DNA from: a virus
Direction: 5' to 3' (one strand)
Length of the DNA stretch: 40,325 bases
Virus genome (UHGV): UHGV-0382853
The position numbers and the translations under genes are program-made. This document shows positions 65 to 32,162 of the stretch, piece by piece; within the stretch, counting starts at the first letter, position 1; every line of letters begins with the position of its first letter. The notes beneath the pieces are model-generated. The model saw nothing but the letters and a program-made list of their open reading frames with translations. It ran no database searches and had not been told where the DNA came from.

Positions 65-2539
65 TTATTGCGGAGTGACATCCTGAGGTCGCCACCAGTA
101 TGTCTGGTTAAACTCTTTCTTCGAACGTTGCTCCATTTTACGCAAATAGCCTGGTGAAAAATACTCCTGCATCTGGTTAAAGATCATGTGATCGAGAGCC
201 GCCTTCAAGTACCAGAGATTCGCACCAGGCATCAAACCTTTCCCCAGCTTCACCAGATCACCACCAGTCTGCTCACTCTTCCCTTCCACAGCATTTAACG
301 GTATGCCCTGAGCAATCTTCACTACGTCATCAACTAGACCAGCTACCGGGCCAAGCATCGACGCCAGCGCGCCGCTTCCGTACCTAGTGTGATCTGACAA
401 TAAAAAGTCACCGTAAAGGCCAAGACCACCACCTTTCAGTAGAGCACCAAGCCAGAATTTTGCGGCATCTTCTCCTGTCATCTCTCGAGGATTACGACCA
501 GACGCAAGGTCGTTAAGTTGTTGCGACAAAGCGCCAAGAATGGTCGTACTGGCAATAAACGTCGCAATATATGCCGCACGCCCACCAGCAGACGGCATAC
601 CCATAGCGCGTGACCAGTGACGCATAACAACCGAGATAGGGAACGATTTAAACAGGAAAACACTTCTCGTTAATTCACCTTTCCATGTTCCACGCTGAAT
701 ACCAGAACCGGTTATCAGTTGCTCACGTGCTCCCGGTGTAATAACAGCCATATCAACTTCTTCAGTTACGGCACCGAGCAGTTTACGCATTGCCTCAAAT
801 TTCACGCGTTCAGGCTCACCAAGATGTTTAACTGCTGAATCAGGGATACGCATAATGCTTTCCGGTGTCAGCATCGTATTATTACCGTTCCCCCAGTCCT
901 CCTGTTGCGCCAACTTCCATACGCTCCAGTCTGTGTCAGTAATCCCTTTGCTTTTCAGGATACGAAAATCAGAGTCATCGAGGCGACGAAGGTCTGGTGT
1001 CCGTGACACTACTTCTCCCAGGCTTCCCATCATGGTTACGCCATAGGCGCGCTTGTGCGCATCTGACCATGCTGTAAGCCCACTGGCACGCATTACCGCC
1101 GTTGCAGCCCAACGAGACACAGACGGCCCCATATTATCCATCGCCCAGCGGTTAACGCTGCCAAGTAGAGATTCCATCGCCAGACCAGCGCGGCGCGCCC
1201 GCGCAAGTTCTGTACGGTTCGTTGGGTCCATAGCTTCAAGCTGGTTGCGGAATAACTGGTTCATTGGAAGGTTGGTAACCTTCGCAGACAGATACATGGT
1301 TCCAAGATCAGAGAACGATGACAGCAACGCGGATCCGAGTCTGCTGGCAACCAGCCAGTTGCGGATATTGTCAGACCATCGCGCGATGTGCGGATTCGCT
1401 ACAGGCTGTGTCTTTCCGGAAATAAAGTTGTACAGATTCTCTGTGTTGTTCGCCAGCCGCTCGACTTTACCGGTTTTACTCGGGTTAGCTGTTGCCGTTT
1501 CTGCCTTCACCTGATCAAGAAGAGAGCGGAAAACATGATCGGGGTTTGGACCATATGTTTCCACCAGTGCAATATCTTTACTGATACCTTCCAGGTGACC
1601 GACCATGATTTCCCATAGAGAGCGATCGCCATAAAGTTGCTGATATTGCAGATAGGAATCTGCATCTTTGAAATGTATCTGTCGTGATGCATTACCACGG
1701 TTAGCACGTGCGCCGGAAATTCGCATTCCGGTATCAGTAAGCTTATTCAGCCCACCAGTAGCGATCGTGTTATAAGCCTCTCCAAGAAATGCAGACAACT
1801 CGGCATCGTTCATCAGTTGTCCATCGGCTCGGGTATAATATTTGCGATCCAGCTTACCTATAACATCGCTAACCCATTTATCTTTTGATACCGCCCCAAC
1901 CTTTTCCATAGAATGATGTTGAGGGATCCCCCAGTTTTCGAGATAGCCAATGTCCCCACCAGCATCATTAAACCGGCGGCGCAGTAGCTCTGTCACTTCT
2001 CTCCACGCCTTAGCACCTTTTCTTGCTTTAGCATTGCCAGTATTTTGCCCCAGCATTTCATATACCAGGTCACGTACGCCCGCTTCATCTTCAAACAGAC
2101 CAAAAAAGCGAGGATCAACTGCTTCGAATGCCTCCTGCAATTGACTCAATGCATAATCACGGGTGGCTTTTGTTCTGGATTCAACAGAGAGGAAATTCGA
2201 TTTACCGTCTGCATTAAAAGCAATAGTACGGTTAAGAGCGCCAAGTTTCCCATCAGCCCCTTGATAGCTATTGATAAATTTATCCAATCTCTGACGTGCG
2301 GCTATAGTGAGGGCCACACGACGTTTCTTTAATGCCGCTTCTCGCTGTAATTCTTCAGATGCCAATTGTGCTGCACGATACAGCCGCTCTGATTCGGAAA
2401 GTTGTCGCCACGACATCGGGTCATCACGAGCAATGGAGCGCATATTTCGATAAATGCGGTCTTCAATGTTCTGTATTTCTCGCGCCGTTAACGTGCGCTG
2501 CGCCGCCTGCTGGACCGCTTGTATACATTCCTGTCTCAT
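65..2539 (-). CDS. large internal virion / ejection protein (T7 gp16-like position), last gene of structural operon
   Basis: 824-aa ORF, ATG with GAGAGG SD; follows the gp14/gp15-like genes in T7-like order; no specific domain recognised. Confidence 0.5.
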   Translation of the reverse strand: MRQECIQAVQQAAQRTLTAREIQNIEDRIYRNMRSIARDDPMSWRQLSESERLYRAAQLASEELQREAALKKRRVALTIAARQRLDKFINSYQGADGKLGALNRTIAFNADGKSNFLSVESRTKATRDYALSQLQEAFEAVDPRFFGLFEDEAGVRDLVYEMLGQNTGNAKARKGAKAWREVTELLRRRFNDAGGDIGYLENWGIPQHHSMEKVGAVSKDKWVSDVIGKLDRKYYTRADGQLMNDAELSAFLGEAYNTIATGGLNKLTDTGMRISGARANRGNASRQIHFKDADSYLQYQQLYGDRSLWEIMVGHLEGISKDIALVETYGPNPDHVFRSLLDQVKAETATANPSKTGKVERLANNTENLYNFISGKTQPVANPHIARWSDNIRNWLVASRLGSALLSSFSDLGTMYLSAKVTNLPMNQLFRNQLEAMDPTNRTELARARRAGLAMESLLGSVNRWAMDNMGPSVSRWAATAVMRASGLTAWSDAHKRAYGVTMMGSLGEVVSRTPDLRRLDDSDFRILKSKGITDTDWSVWKLAQQEDWGNGNNTMLTPESIMRIPDSAVKHLGEPERVKFEAMRKLLGAVTEEVDMAVITPGAREQLITGSGIQRGTWKGELTRSVFLFKSFPISVVMRHWSRAMGMPSAGGRAAYIATFIASTTILGALSQQLNDLASGRNPREMTGEDAAKFWLGALLKGGGLGLYGDFLLSDHTRYGSGALASMLGPVAGLVDDVVKIAQGIPLNAVEGKSEQTGGDLVKLGKGLMPGANLWYLKAALDHMIFNQMQEYFSPGYLRKMEQRSKKEFNQTYWWRPQDVTPQ

Positions 2540-16470: not shown

Positions 16471-16547
16471 GTGGCATTAGCTCAGTTGGACAGAGCAACC
16501 GCCTTCTAAGCGGTTGGTCGCAGGTTCGAATCCTGCATGCCACGCCA
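16471..16547 (+). tRNA. tRNA-Arg (anticodon TCT, reads AGA)
   Basis: Cloverleaf by eye: acceptor stem gtggcat/atgccac, anticodon loop cTTCTAAg, T-arm ggttcgaatcc, 3' CCA encoded. Confidence 0.85.
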
Positions 16548-30114: not shown

Positions 30115-31362
30115 TTATCCCGCCATCCACTTCTCAAACTTCGACGGGGAGAACGGAATCAGATCCGTATGCTCCCCGTCAATCCAGGAATCAATCATAT
30201 CGGCCCACTGCTGCAACATGTAGGCGCGCTGTCTGGCGTATTCCGCTTTGTTATATACGGCGCGCACACCTTTCTGCTCATGTGCCAGAGCCTTTTCAAT
30301 CCAGTCTGAAGGATAACCAGCCTCATGCAACAACGTACTTGCTGTACGGCGCATATCGTGTACGGTGAAGCCCTGAATATGCTCACCATCTTCATTTATT
30401 ATTTTCACCGTTCTGTCGATCAGAGAGTTCAGCGCGGCATTAGATAATGGCTTCCGGAAATTGTAACGACCAGGAACCAGATATTCACTTCCACCAGCGC
30501 ACATCTGCAACCCGACCAATATATCCTGAGCCTGTTTAGGCAGGTAAATAACGTGCGCCCGGCTTCCCTTCATGCGGTCTGAAGGAATTGTCCATGTCCA
30601 TTTTTTAAAATCTATTTCATCCCACGTTGCGTTGGTGAATTCGCCTTTACGAACCATAGTGATAAGCACCAGCTTTAAAGCCATTTTCATAGTGCCCATA
30701 GCACCAATGGCATCCAGCGTGCGGAAGAACAGGCCAATTTCTTCTGGTGTCAGTGTTCGCTCTCGTGGTTTAAATATGGCGATAGACGAAGGTTTAATGT
30801 CAGCCGCAGGATTAAACAAACCATGACCACGGTCATTGGCGTGACGGTATACGCTGCTGATGATCTCCCTGGCCTGTACTGCTGTTGCCCGACCACCGCG
30901 TTCGACAATCCGGTCACACAAATCACGAACCATCGATGTGGTAATTTCAGCCATCATTTTGTTGCCAAGAACCGGAAGTATGTCACGGTCGATCACCGCC
31001 TGCTTCATTGCGCGGGTACTGTCAGCCAGGATGACGTGTTTCATATAACTGTCGGTATGTACCGCAAACGTCTCAGCACCACGAATCTTTTTGATACCGT
31101 CACGTTTAGCCGCAGCCGGTGACTGGCCTGCTTTAAGCAGCTTCTTTGCAGCAATCAGTTCTTCCCGCGCTTCTGCCAGGCTGATACCGTCACGCCCATA
31201 CTGCCCGATTACCAGTGTTTCGCGGCGACCGTTGATACGGTAGTCATAGCGAAACGAGACCGTGCCTGACGTAAGCACAGCTACATACAGCCCGTCACGA
31301 TCGGAGACCTTGTACAGTTTGTCCTGCGGCTTGAGGTTTTTTAATTTTGTATCGGTAAGCAC
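30115..31362 (-). CDS. int: tyrosine integrase (P4-type)
   Basis: 415 aa; N-terminal MLTDTKLKNLKP...DGLYVAV... (DUF4102-like arm-binding domain) and C-terminal HDMRRTASTLLHEAGY...YNKAEYARQ catalytic region. Confidence 0.9.
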   Translation of the reverse strand: MLTDTKLKNLKPQDKLYKVSDRDGLYVAVLTSGTVSFRYDYRINGRRETLVIGQYGRDGISLAEAREELIAAKKLLKAGQSPAAAKRDGIKKIRGAETFAVHTDSYMKHVILADSTRAMKQAVIDRDILPVLGNKMMAEITTSMVRDLCDRIVERGGRATAVQAREIISSVYRHANDRGHGLFNPAADIKPSSIAIFKPRERTLTPEEIGLFFRTLDAIGAMGTMKMALKLVLITMVRKGEFTNATWDEIDFKKWTWTIPSDRMKGSRAHVIYLPKQAQDILVGLQMCAGGSEYLVPGRYNFRKPLSNAALNSLIDRTVKIINEDGEHIQGFTVHDMRRTASTLLHEAGYPSDWIEKALAHEQKGVRAVYNKAEYARQRAYMLQQWADMIDSWIDGEHTDLIPFSPSKFEKWMAG

Positions 31363-31404
31363 AATTCACCCGTATAGAAACCATTTTCATGACGGTATGA
31401 GAGT

Positions 31405-31419
31405 ATACCTTTAAGGTAA
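31405..31419. promoter_or_regulatory. operator-like palindrome upstream of integrase, nested in a larger inverted repeat
   Basis: atacctttaaggtaa flanked by tgacggtat (31390-31398) and ataccgtca (31419-31427). Confidence 0.45.
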
Positions 31420-31679
31420 TACCGTCACCTGTACCGCCGAAAAATATGGTGTAGAGTGAATAGAAATGAATACATAAAAACAAAAACCCCCTGCAAAAAC
31501 AGAGGGTTGAGTTGGCATCTGAATAGGAATGATTTGCTATGAGTTAGCTGTTAATCATTCCCACTCAATTATTTACGATAACCATAACCAATTGAGTGAT
31601 AACATTTTTCCAAATCTCAATTTTTATCGTACCGTTTTATATACCGTCACCGGAAATCAGTACCATGAAAAATGCCATG

Positions 31680-32162
31680 CTATCTGGTCAGGGTGTCGTA
31701 CTGTTTTTCACAGACTCTTCCGGCTTCGGCTGCCCGGTCAGCATACTCTGCCAGTTGTCTGTTTCTCTCGAGAGATTTACTGAGCACGTCGGCAAGCAAA
31801 ACTCCGGTGTCTGCGGCTGACGTCCCAGCGCCGACAATGGCGTTATACTGCCTGAGCTGCTCACGGATGGCAACGAGCTGTTGCTGCAACCGGCCAGCGC
31901 GAGCGGCAGCATCAAGAGCATCATTGCGCGCCTGGTCGATCCTCTGCTGCGCTTCACGTTCATTGATCGCTTTCTCCTGTTCGTAGTGCTGACGAATTCT
32001 CTCATCTTCGGTTTTGCGGTCTTCTTTCGCCTGCGCATACCCGGCGTCGTACTGACGACTGCCGTGTACACTCCAGGCAACAACTCCTGATATGACCAGA
32101 ACAGCAAGCACCGCCATGATAATCAACTGTTTCCGGTATGCTTTTACGAATGCCCAGATCAT
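31680..32162 (-). CDS. i-spanin (Rz-like)
   Basis: 160 aa; N-terminal TM helix then Gln/Arg/Glu-rich coiled coil; directly downstream of the endolysin. Confidence 0.7.
31688..31924 (-). CDS. o-spanin (Rz1-like) embedded in the Rz frame
   Basis: Alternative frame encodes [17 protein letters not shown]... (signal peptide with LAGC lipobox); start could also be the upstream Met at 31963. Confidence 0.45.
   Translation of the reverse strand: MMLLMLPLALAGCSNSSLPSVSSSGSITPLSALGRQPQTPEFCLPTCSVNLSRETDNWQSMLTGQPKPEESVKNSTTP

What the first reader, a model, noticed from the sequence alone, without database searches (positions are those of the whole stretch)
31094..31650. Repeated ATACCGTCAC 10-mers around the integrase 5' end: candidate attP arm-type sites
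The 10-mer occurs in the same orientation at about 31094, 31184, 31419 and 31641, with an inverted copy at 31390. Two copies are in the upstream intergenic region and flank an operator palindrome; two are inside the integrase N-terminal coding region, where both encode RDGI (extended 13-mer tgataccgtcacg). The recombination site of a P4-type integrase is normally adjacent to int, and no tRNA-3'-end core is visible, so these repeats are the best attP-related signal I can see.
Basis: seen in the sequence. Interest (0 to 1): 0.45.

Follow-up and report, generated by a model that had tools for sequence, protein, structure and literature searches.

The report
Integrase arm sites flanking phage attP
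The repeated 10-mers are real and are very probably the accessory ("arm") binding sites the phage integrase uses to insert at the end of the host guaA gene, but a sister phage's public record already annotates them, so this is a solid, largely ordinary feature.

Summary
ATACCGTCAC occurs exactly five times in the window against 0.05 expected. Four direct copies lie at 31094, 31184, 31419 and 31641. The "inverted copy at 31390" is a 9/10 match.

The window is a phiV10/epsilon15-like Uetakevirus. Lysogen junctions and a reconstructed empty site place the attP core at 31553-31569. It is a 17-bp copy of the guaA 3' end, lying between the 31419 and 31641 copies.

The four direct copies keep fixed distances from the core (-462, -372, -137, +85) in Escherichia, Salmonella, Enterobacter and Klebsiella phages. 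The core motif TGACGGTA recurs in the same layout next to guaA in integrase relatives down to about 47% identity. One integrase clade uses ATGGTA and one phage uses AGGGTA at every site. Integrase residues 40 and 47, in the arm-binding domain, change with the motif.

The two copies inside int have invariant synonymous positions, so the repeated RDGI peptide alone does not explain them. The 30841 copy is not conserved.

No "operator palindrome" is supported. What lies between the copies is a terminator and the core.

The epsilon15 GenBank record already marks the four homologous sites as integrase-binding. Binding itself remains untested.

The parts
30115..31362 (-). int: P4/SXT-type tyrosine integrase, 415 aa, GTG start
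   Evidence: ORF list. Pfam Arm-DNA-bind_3 (res 2-87, E 3.9e-20), Phage_int_M and Phage_integrase. 97% nt identity to phiV10 int and 84% to epsilon15 int.
31102..31359 (-). Coding region of the Int arm-binding domain (residues 2-87). It includes D40 and R47, which change together with the arm motif.
   Evidence: Pfam. PDB 3JU0, 3JTZ and 3RMP by sequence and by fold. The model places residues 35-43 and 46-55 in adjacent strands. D40/R47 versus N40/Q47 versus N40/Y47 track ACGGTA, ATGGTA and AGGGTA sites.
31553..31569 (.). attP core AATCATTCCCACTCAAT, the reverse complement of the guaA 3' end ATTGAGTGGGAATGATT. Crossover must occur within it.
   Evidence: The int-side junction match ends at 31569 and the Rz-side junction match starts at 31553 in hundreds of E. 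coli lysogens. The attB rebuilt from the two host flanks is intact in 4571 of 5426 genomes. The same 17-mer is reported as attP/attB for ZX5, phiV10 and epsilon15 (PMC9782041).
31641..31650 (+). Int-distal arm site 1, exact 10-mer, +85 from the core
   Evidence: Fixed position in 6 phages. It lies in the invariant block TACCGTTTTATATACCGTCACCGG amid variable flanks. It is the first of a tandem pair present in every intact attP examined.
31629..31638 (+). Int-distal arm site 2, degenerate (GTACCGTTTT), 12 bp from site 1
   Evidence: A tandem pair 12 bp apart occurs at the same distance from the core in all 18 intact attPs. The second copy is a full motif in L192, L147, L140 and L136. Repeat family D1.
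31419..31428 (+). Int-proximal arm site B, exact 10-mer. It is -137 from the core and 57-66 bp upstream of the int start codon.
   Evidence: An equivalent direct copy sits about 127 bp from the guaA stop in relatives across Gamma-, Beta- and Alphaproteobacteria.
31431..31438 (+). Int-proximal arm site A, degenerate (GTACCGCC), 12 bp from site B
   Evidence: It corresponds to the full copy at about 115 bp from the guaA stop in L017, L021, L023, L035 and L038. Klebsiella phage BUCT711 has ATACCGTCAA there.
31389..31398 (-). Int-proximal arm site C, inverted, 9/10 match (TGACGGTAT on the + strand), 27-36 bp upstream of the int start
   Evidence: Conserved in E. coli and Salmonella phages at -167/-168. 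An inverted copy sits at 157-169 bp from the guaA stop in nearly all relatives.
31184..31193 (+). Coding-region site 1 (int nt 170-179, codons R57-D58-G59-I60), -372 from the core
   Evidence: CGT GAC GGT ATC is invariant in 16 Enterobacterales sequences while flanking codons vary. In epsilon15 the R57C change (CGT to TGT) keeps the 10-mer. TGACGGTA is kept at this place in Pantoea, Morganella, Edwardsiella and Tolumonas relatives.
31094..31103 (+). Coding-region site 2 (int nt 260-269, codons R87-D88-G89-I90), -462 from the core
   Evidence: GAC GGT is invariant in 16/16 and CGT in 14/16. In relatives where I90 is K (L020, L022, L023, L030) the 8-mer TGACGGTA is still present.
31051..31065 (.). 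GTCGGTATGTACCGC: convergent GGTA/TACC half-motifs inside int (codons 100-104). Candidate extra site.
   Evidence: Invariant in alignment A1. T103 ACC and D104 GAC are among the few codon-invariant codons. A full inverted copy sits at CDS nt 305 in L020-L024, L029 and L038. Weak.
30841..30850 (-). Exact inverted copy inside int (codons V-Y-R-H). Probably not functional.
   Evidence: It is exact only in the window and phiV10. Its synonymous positions vary freely in relatives: GTA/GTG/GTT, CGT/CGA/CGG, CAC/CAT/TAC/TAT.
31485..31508 (-). Rho-independent terminator between the core and int. After integration it sits just downstream of the restored guaA.
   Evidence: Annotated at the same place in phiV10 and epsilon15. 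It is a near copy of the host terminator seen at L004 1446-1478.
31660..31679 (+). GTACCATGAAAAATGCCATG: tandem pair resembling the ATGG-type arm sites of the alternative integrase cassette
   Evidence: L151 and L152 share the window's distal arm up to the core, then carry an N40/Q47 integrase with ATGGTA sites.

Best explanation
The interval is the attP of a phiV10/epsilon15-like temperate podovirus, and the repeats are its arm-type integrase-binding sites.

Shown here:
- The 17-bp core at 31553-31569 copies the last codons and stop of host guaA. Recombination there restores guaA and leaves a phage-borne terminator behind it.
- The core is flanked by copies of (G/T)TGACGGTAT, written on the int coding strand.
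- The int-distal arm has a tandem pair 12 bp apart (31641-50 and 31629-38).
- The int-proximal arm has a direct pair (31419-28 and 31431-38) and an inverted copy (31389-98).
- Two further direct copies lie inside the int reading frame (31184-93 and 31094-103).

Inferred mechanism: Int binds these sites with its N-terminal four-stranded beta-sheet domain while its core-binding and catalytic domains hold the core. Int thereby bridges arms and core into an intasome, probably helped by DNA-bending host proteins, as in phage lambda.

Also inferred: the face of the beta3-beta4 hairpin carrying D40 and R47 reads the fourth base of TGACGGTA.

The proximal sites sit 27-66 bp upstream of the int start, and guaA, core and int share one direction. 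Int binding there may therefore also repress int, as shown for KplE1 IntS. This step is speculative.

The two coding-region sites are held by selection on the DNA sequence. They most likely serve as outer arm sites or as autoregulatory sites. Their role is the least certain part.
For: - The repeat is non-random: 5 exact copies against 0.05 expected.
- The core is mapped by both lysogen junctions and by an intact reconstructed attB. It agrees with the published core (PMC9782041).
- Int carries Arm-DNA-bind_3. It matches the arm-binding domains 3JU0, 3JTZ and 3RMP by sequence and by fold.
- The four direct copies keep offsets of -462, -372, -137 and +85 in six phages of four host genera at 78-97% identity. 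The distal site is an invariant island in otherwise variable DNA.
- In 30 loci with Int relatives down to about 47% identity, TGACGGTA occurs at 11.9 per kb between the guaA stop and int, against 0.56 per kb elsewhere. It recurs at about 115+, 127+, 167-, 192+ and 262+ from the guaA stop.
- Every intact attP has a tandem pair on the distal arm at the same distance from the core.
- One Int clade uses ATGGTA and one phage uses AGGGTA at all sites of both arms, with the same layout. Int residues 40 and 47 follow: D/R in 44 loci with clear ACGGTA, N/Q in 15 ATGGTA loci, N/Y in 1 AGGGTA locus, with no exception. These are the only two columns invariant within both groups yet different between them.
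- Only 21 of 214 amino-acid-invariant degenerate codons are codon-invariant. They include D58, G59, I60, D88 and G89.
- The epsilon15 record annotates the four homologous 10-mers as integrase-binding.
Against: - There are no binding or recombination data for these sites, and I could not read the epsilon15 paper.
- The ATGG-type integrases form a single clade. The motif/residue covariation therefore rests on one or two evolutionary events.
- The coding-region sites lie 372 and 462 bp from the core. This is further out than the arm sites of lambda as I recall them (about -160 to +80; from memory, not checked here).
- These coding sites occur only in one clade of relatives (Enterobacterales and neighbours). 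The link between a short intergenic gap and coding-region sites is therefore confounded by ancestry.
- The simple scan found no sigma-70-like promoter upstream of int. The autoregulation idea has no direct support.
- Sites B and C can also form an RNA hairpin.
Confidence: 0.8

Rival explanations
1. The copies inside int are by-products of coding: the peptide RDGI occurs twice (and VYRH once), and the codons happen to spell the motif. Only the intergenic copies are real sites.
For: Both copies encode RDGI. D-G-I is fairly common at the first position in the family. The 30841 copy behaves as this rival predicts: it is exact only in the window and phiV10, and its synonymous sites vary freely in relatives. 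The coding sites are far from the core (372 and 462 bp).
Against: Synonymous positions of codons 57-60 and 88-89 are invariant in 16 sequences at 72-99% nt identity. Only about 10% of comparable codons are invariant, and neighbouring codons vary. Only 3 of 15 invariant Gly codons are fixed, and two of them are G59 and G89. Amino-acid changes at the motif edges (R57C in epsilon15; I90K in L020, L022, L023 and L030) keep the DNA motif. Caulobacter L039 encodes YGRDGIS without the DNA motif.
Confidence: 0.15
2. The repeats are bound not by integrase but by another element-encoded protein, such as an excisionase/directionality factor or a repressor (an operator array controlling int).
For: No binding data exist. 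The sites overlap the likely int control region (27-66 bp upstream of the start).
Against: Copies lie on both arms, in both orientations, and at fixed distances from the core in elements with very different gene content, from Caulobacter and Cupriavidus to E. coli. The gene that travels with them in all loci is int. The motif base change tracks two residues of the Int arm-binding domain. L151 and L152 swap the int cassette together with its proximal sites exactly at the core.
Confidence: 0.07
3. The inverted pair formed by sites C and B (31390-98 and 31419-27) acts as an RNA stem-loop in the int leader, for example an RNase III processing site as annotated in epsilon15, rather than or in addition to acting as DNA sites.
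For: The two form a 9-bp perfect inverted repeat. The predicted RNA fold is -18.7 kcal/mol with z = -2.9. The epsilon15 record places an RNase III feature over the homologous stretch.
Against: This does not explain the direct copies on the other arm or in the coding region, which change in concert with the pair. In Enterobacter phage BUCT554 site C has two uncompensated changes. No promoter has been placed upstream, so it is not shown that this stretch is transcribed.
Confidence: 0.15

Closest known systems
Salmonella phage epsilon15 attP as annotated in GenBank AY150271.2 (Kropinski et al. 2007, Virology 369:234)
   Same: Four protein_bind features labelled 'integrase / integration' sit on the same 10-mer at exactly homologous positions, with spacings of 90, 235 and 222 bp. 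The 17-bp core, the terminator and the gene order (endolysin, Rz, attP, int) are also the same.
   Different: The region is about 84% identical to the window. Epsilon15 has R57C at the first coding site. The record does not mark the inverted copy or the degenerate partner sites. It adds predicted IHF and RNase III sites that I did not test. These are predictions; I could not check whether the paper contains binding data.
Escherichia phages phiV10 and vB_EcoP_ZX5 (attP core at the guaA 3' end)
   Same: About 97% identical over the interval. The same 17-bp core is reported as attP/attB, with junctions sequenced for ZX5 (PMC9782041). All five exact copies are present in phiV10.
   Different: The phiV10 record annotates only the terminator, not arm sites. 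The ZX5 paper describes the core only.
Phage lambda Int/attP (heterobivalent integrase with arm-type sites P1, P2, P'1-P'3)
   Same: The logic is the same: an N-terminal domain binds repeats that differ from the core, on both arms, in mixed orientation. One arm has tandem sites and accessory bending factors are expected. (This is established knowledge, summarised in PMC2951348.)
   Different: The arm-binding domain here belongs to Pfam family Arm-DNA-bind_3, the P4-like four-stranded type. Here int faces away from the core with its 5' end next to attP. Two sites lie inside int. The target is the 3' end of a protein gene.
[quoted passage not shown]
   Same: The N-terminal domain has the same fold and is 38-40% identical. 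The title of 3RMP states that it concerns recognition of attP substrates by P4-like integrases.
   Different: As I recall (from memory, not checked here), those elements insert at tRNA genes. Their arm motif and contact residues could not be compared because the papers are not held.
KplE1 (CPS-53) IntS/attL, where the int promoter overlaps arm-type sites and Int represses itself (PMC2951348)
   Same: The layout is the same: target gene, core and int all point the same way, so the int upstream region is the recombination arm.
   Different: The KplE1 target is a tRNA gene (argW). Autoregulation and the promoter are demonstrated there but not here, where no promoter was detected.
Other guaA-targeting elements: the 'epsilon15 cluster' of IntSXT-type recombinases, CMGI-3, GIsul2 (PMC8138268, PMC9376610)
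   Same: They insert at the guaA 3' end around GAGTGGGA. Relatives found here in Beta- and Alphaproteobacteria share the core and the arm motif.
   Different: These are islands or ICEs rather than podoviruses. The accessible papers describe no arm sites for them.

Membership tests
attP of a heterobivalent (lambda-type) tyrosine integrase with arm-type sites | The integrase has a separate N-terminal arm-binding domain | tested here: met
   Pfam PF13356 Arm-DNA-bind_3, residues 2-87, E 3.9e-20. PDB 3JU0 and 3JTZ by sequence. Foldseek probability 1.00 to 3JU0, 3JTZ and 3RMP.
attP of a heterobivalent (lambda-type) tyrosine integrase with arm-type sites | A core sequence shared with the bacterial site, at which the prophage junctions lie | tested here: met
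   The 17-bp identity at 31553-31569 is bounded by both junctions. The rebuilt attB is intact in 4571 of 5426 genomes.
attP of a heterobivalent (lambda-type) tyrosine integrase with arm-type sites | A repeated motif, different from the core, on both sides of the core | tested here: met
   Copies at +85 and +73 (distal arm) and at -137, -125 and -167 (proximal arm), plus -372 and -462.
attP of a heterobivalent (lambda-type) tyrosine integrase with arm-type sites | The motif is specific to the integrase: sites and protein change together | tested here: met
   ACGGTA, ATGGTA and AGGGTA sites go with D40/R47, N40/Q47 and N40/Y47 (44, 15 and 1 loci, no exception). Caveat: this reflects one or two evolutionary events.
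attP of a heterobivalent (lambda-type) tyrosine integrase with arm-type sites | Physical binding of the Int N-domain to the repeats, and their requirement for recombination | not testable with these tools
   Needs EMSA or footprinting and attP deletion assays. No such data appear in the papers I could reach.
attP of a heterobivalent (lambda-type) tyrosine integrase with arm-type sites | Sites for bending or accessory proteins (IHF, RDF) between the core and the arm sites | not tested
   Only the predicted IHF features of the epsilon15 record are available. Conserved repeats TGAATAG(A/G)AATGA at 31457 and 31520 are candidates.
epsilon15 cluster of guaA-targeting IntSXT/P4-type integrases | Integrase closely related to epsilon15 Int | tested here: met
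   88% amino-acid identity over the first 400 codons. 84% nt identity over the region.
epsilon15 cluster of guaA-targeting IntSXT/P4-type integrases | Insertion at the 3' end of guaA | tested here: met
   guaA abuts the int-side junction in lysogens. The phage core carries ATT GAG TGG GAA TGA, which encodes IEWE plus stop.
tRNA-targeting P4-type attP | The core is a copy of a tRNA gene 3' end | tested here: not met
   There is no tRNA in or near the interval; the only tRNA is at 16471-16547. The core is guaA-derived.
   The palindromic elements between the copies are a terminator hairpin and inverted partial copies of the core, which are confined to Uetakeviruses. No promoter-like site was found in 31250-31750.
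Self-repressed integrase gene of the KplE1 type | The int promoter overlaps arm-type sites and Int lowers its own transcription | tested here: inconclusive
   The gene layout fits and sites lie 27-66 bp upstream of the start codon. The scan found no promoter and expression cannot be tested here.

The most novel reading that the evidence does not exclude
Three linked readings go beyond the existing annotation.
1. Two arm-type sites are embedded in the int reading frame and held by selection on the DNA. The first 90 codons of int would then encode both the arm-binding domain and two of its own binding sites.
2. Arm-site specificity in this family is set by a simple switch: motif base C, T or G paired with Int residues D40/R47, N40/Q47 or N40/Y47.
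3. The Rz-side arm of some Uetakeviruses carries site pairs for both integrase types. Int cassettes could then be exchanged at the core without losing a working attP.
Probability: 0.4. Interest if true: 0.45.

Novelty: already known. Interest (0 to 1): 0.25.

Why it matters
The practical value is modest. The analysis fixes the anatomy of the attP of a common E. coli prophage family. About 570 of 5426 complete E. coli genomes carry this family at guaA. That helps with prophage boundary calling and with building guaA-targeted integration vectors. The comparative data also give a concrete, testable recognition rule for the P4-type arm-binding domain: one base against two residues. They also provide an example of protein-binding sites kept inside a coding sequence. 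None of this overturns current understanding of site-specific recombination.

Tried and rejected
- The epsilon15 genome paper (PMC2698709, PMID 17825342) and the HPI/HAI7 arm-domain paper (PMC2797237) are not held. I rely on the GenBank features and PDB titles instead.
- A full-text search for the 10-mer returned only unrelated hits, apparently primer sequences. Searches for arm sites of P4-like integrases found nothing on this cluster.
- A viral-contig scan with the window's Int returned only 99-100% identical relatives. A second scan with an alignment of distant integrases was needed.
- The promoter scan of 31250-31750 found nothing. I therefore do not place an int promoter.
- The idea that inverted core-like copies (31520-34 and 31589-99) are extra core-type sites was dropped as general, because they are absent outside Uetakeviruses.
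- The 30841 copy was considered as a fifth site and rejected because it is not conserved.
- CDS nt 64-73 (SDRDGL, CGTGACGGGC) and the ACGGTA at 31237-42 were looked at. They are not motif copies in this group.
Full report
**1. Observation**

ATACCGTCAC occurs exactly on the + strand at 31094, 31184, 31419 and 31641, and on the - strand at 30841. That is five matches against 0.05 expected, and the largest count in 100 dinucleotide-preserving shuffles was 1. With one mismatch allowed, an inverted copy appears at 31389-31398.

The integrase gene lies on the minus strand at 30115-31362. The copies at 31184 and 31094 are in its N-terminal part, and both read CGT GAC GGT ATC, encoding RDGI. The copies at 31419 and 31641 lie in the gap between int and the Rz-like gene at 31680-32162.

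**2. Context and the real core**

The region is 97% identical to Escherichia phage phiV10 and 84% identical to Salmonella phage epsilon15, both genus Uetakevirus.

In about 570 of 5426 complete E. coli genomes the int side of the region matches up to window 31569 and then runs into guaA. The Rz side matches from window 31553, preceded by the yfgI side of the host. The overlap is AATCATTCCCACTCAAT at 31553-31569. It is the reverse complement of the guaA end, ATT GAG TGG GAA TGA TT.

Joining the two host flanks gives a sequence that is intact in 4571 of 5426 genomes, at 100% identity in the best hits. The same 17-mer is published as attP/attB for vB_EcoP_ZX5, with sequenced junctions, and that paper states it was proven for phiV10 and epsilon15 (PMC9782041).

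So attP lies inside the reported interval, between the 31419 and 31641 copies. The missing "tRNA-type core" is a protein-gene 3' end. The only tRNA in the window is at 16471-16547.

Between the core and int sits a terminator hairpin on the int strand (31485-31508). It closely resembles the host terminator downstream of guaA. After integration it follows the restored guaA.

**3. The prediction already exists**

The epsilon15 GenBank record carries four protein_bind features labelled "integrase / integration". They fall on exact copies of the same 10-mer at offsets of -462, -372, -137 and +85 from the core, the same offsets as in the window. I could not read the paper to see whether binding was tested. 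The phiV10 record and the ZX5 paper do not mention arm sites.

**4. Conservation**

In phiV10, epsilon15, SPN1S, Enterobacter phage BUCT554 and Klebsiella phage BUCT711 the four direct copies keep the same offsets. The inverted 9-mer is kept in the E. coli and Salmonella phages.

In the six-sequence alignment the distal site lies in an invariant block, TACCGTTTTATATACCGTCACCGG. The roughly 30 columns before it are highly variable.

A scan of one genome per species found integrase relatives from 91% down to about 47% identity in Gamma-, Beta- and Alphaproteobacteria. Almost all have a guaA end (…IEWE stop) 190-370 bp upstream of int. In 30 such loci the 8-mer TGACGGTA occurs 88 times in 7.4 kb of guaA-int spacer (11.9 per kb). 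Elsewhere it occurs 65 times in 116 kb (0.56 per kb). It recurs at about 115 (+), 127 (+), 157-169 (-), 190-193 (+) and 262-265 (+) bp from the guaA stop.

The window matches this layout at three positions:
- 127 (+), which is 31419-28.
- 157 (-), which is 31389-98.
- A degenerate copy at 115, which is 31431-38.

Intact attPs from viral contigs show that the distal arm always carries a tandem pair 12 bp apart at a fixed distance from the core. In the window the pair is the exact copy at 31641-50 and the degenerate copy at 31629-38.

**5. Who reads the sites**

The integrase has the Arm-DNA-bind_3 domain at residues 2-87. It matches the solved arm-binding domains of the HAI7 and HPI integrases by sequence (3JU0, 3JTZ and 3RMP). 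A single-sequence AlphaFold model (pLDDT about 75 over the domain) matches them by fold with probability 1.00.

One clade of relatives carries ATGGTA instead of ACGGTA at every site of both arms, and one phage carries AGGGTA. The layout is unchanged.

Across all loci with enough upstream sequence, Int residues 40 and 47 follow the motif without exception:

| Residues 40 / 47 | Arm motif | Loci |
|---|---|---|
| D / R | ACGGTA | 44 (15 more have too few sites to call) |
| N / Q | ATGGTA | 15 |
| N / Y | AGGGTA | 1 |

Of nine alignment columns that separate the two main groups, these two are the only ones invariant within each group. The model puts residue 40 in strand 35-43 and residue 47 in strand 46-55, on either side of the N44-G45 turn. 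By hairpin geometry they would share one face of the sheet; this is inference.

Arg with a G:C pair and Gln with an A:T pair fit common recognition patterns; this is also inference.

The caveat is that the ATGG group is a single clade. Identity is at least 68% within it and at most 65% to the other group. The covariation therefore reflects one or two events.

**6. The coding-region copies**

Sixteen Enterobacterales int sequences at 72-99% nucleotide identity have 214 amino-acid-invariant degenerate codons. Only 21 of these are codon-invariant. They include D58 GAC, G59 GGT, I60 ATC, D88 GAC and G89 GGT. R87 is CGT in 14 of 16. Neighbouring codons use two to six synonyms. Only 3 of 15 invariant Gly codons are fixed, and two of them are G59 and G89.

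Amino-acid changes at the motif edges keep the DNA motif. Epsilon15 has R57C through CGT to TGT. Pantoea, Edwardsiella and Tolumonas relatives have K instead of I90 yet keep TGACGGTA. Caulobacter L039 encodes YGRDGIS without the DNA motif.

Codon repetition alone therefore does not explain these two copies. What they do at 372 and 462 bp from the core is open. They could be outer arm sites or autoregulatory sites.

They occur only in the clade whose guaA-int spacer is short (192-225 bp). Relatives with about 300-bp spacers instead have non-coding sites at about 192 and about 262. That contrast is confounded by ancestry.

A further nearly invariant GGTA/TACC pair lies at 31051-65. The 30841 copy is exact only in the window and phiV10, and its synonymous positions vary in relatives. 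I regard it as incidental.

**7. Side claims and rivals**

No operator is supported. The scan found no promoter-like site in 31250-31750. The palindromic elements are the terminator and inverted partial copies of the core (31520-34 and 31589-99). Those partial copies are confined to Uetakeviruses.

Sites B and C can form an RNA hairpin of -18.7 kcal/mol with z = -2.9. Epsilon15 annotates an RNase III site there. This may coexist with DNA binding, but it cannot explain the concerted motif on the other arm.

Binding by an excisionase or repressor is unlikely. The sites travel with int across unrelated elements, and in L151 and L152 they are swapped together with the int cassette exactly at the core.

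The layout, with target gene, core and int in one direction, is the one for which KplE1 IntS was shown to repress its own promoter through arm-type sites (PMC2951348). That role is possible here but untested.

**8. Verdict**

The finding is real and its interpretation is right. The feature is an ordinary lambda-style attP of a known guaA-targeting integrase cluster (PMC8138268). The four main sites are already annotated in a sister phage. This analysis adds:
- the exact placement of the core relative to the sites;
- three extra degenerate or inverted sites;
- evidence for DNA-level selection on the coding copies;
- a candidate one-base/two-residue specificity switch;
- the observation that the Rz-side arm also carries a pair of sites of the alternative type (31660-79).

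Experimental binding and recombination data are still needed.

Noticed in passing
window 31660-31679: GTACCATGAAAAATGCCATG, just past the Rz stop codon, is a tandem pair resembling the ATGGTA-type arm sites of the other integrase clade. IMG/VR contigs L151 and L152 match the window from Rz through this arm up to the core. They then carry a different int cassette with an N40/Q47 integrase, ATGGTA sites and a 306-bp spacer. The distal arm therefore appears to hold sites for both integrase types. The pair is absent in L121 and L187.
   Followed up: partly
window 31485-31508 versus L004 1446-1478: The phage terminator between the core and int is a near copy of the host terminator downstream of guaA (AAAAACCC[C/T]CTG....AACAGAGGGTT). 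The phage therefore replaces both the last codons and the terminator of guaA when it integrates.
   Followed up: partly
window 31520-31534 and 31589-31599: Inverted partial copies of the core flank it on both sides: TGAATAGGAATGATT (13 of 17 positions when scored against the inverted 17-mer core) and CAATTGAGTGA. They are found in Uetakeviruses only, not in distant relatives. Their function is unknown.
   Followed up: partly
window 31457-31469 and 31520-31532: Direct repeat TGAATAG(A/G)AATGA, 63 bp apart in the int-proximal arm, largely invariant in the six-phage alignment. It is a candidate site for an accessory protein such as an RDF or IHF. The epsilon15 record predicts IHF sites nearby.
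   Followed up: no
window 16471-16547: A tRNA-Arg (anticodon tct) gene on the + strand, inside the phage genome and unrelated to the attachment site.
   Followed up: no
E. coli genomes, hits H26-H31 and H33/H34: Six genomes hold the uninterrupted attP region (full query coverage) and show three matching places each, which may mean tandem lysogens. Two 41-kb records labelled as plasmids match as if they were episomal phage genomes.
   Followed up: no
E. coli guaA attB (reconstructed from L004 and L005): The guaA 3'-end site is intact in 4571 of 5426 complete E. coli genomes and split in about 855. Only about 570 of those carry this phage family's junctions, so other elements also use the site.
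   Followed up: no
window 31380-31440, minus strand: Sites B and C, with the GGTA/TACC elements between them, can fold as an RNA hairpin (-18.7 kcal/mol, z = -2.9). This coincides with an RNase III feature in the epsilon15 record.
   Followed up: partly
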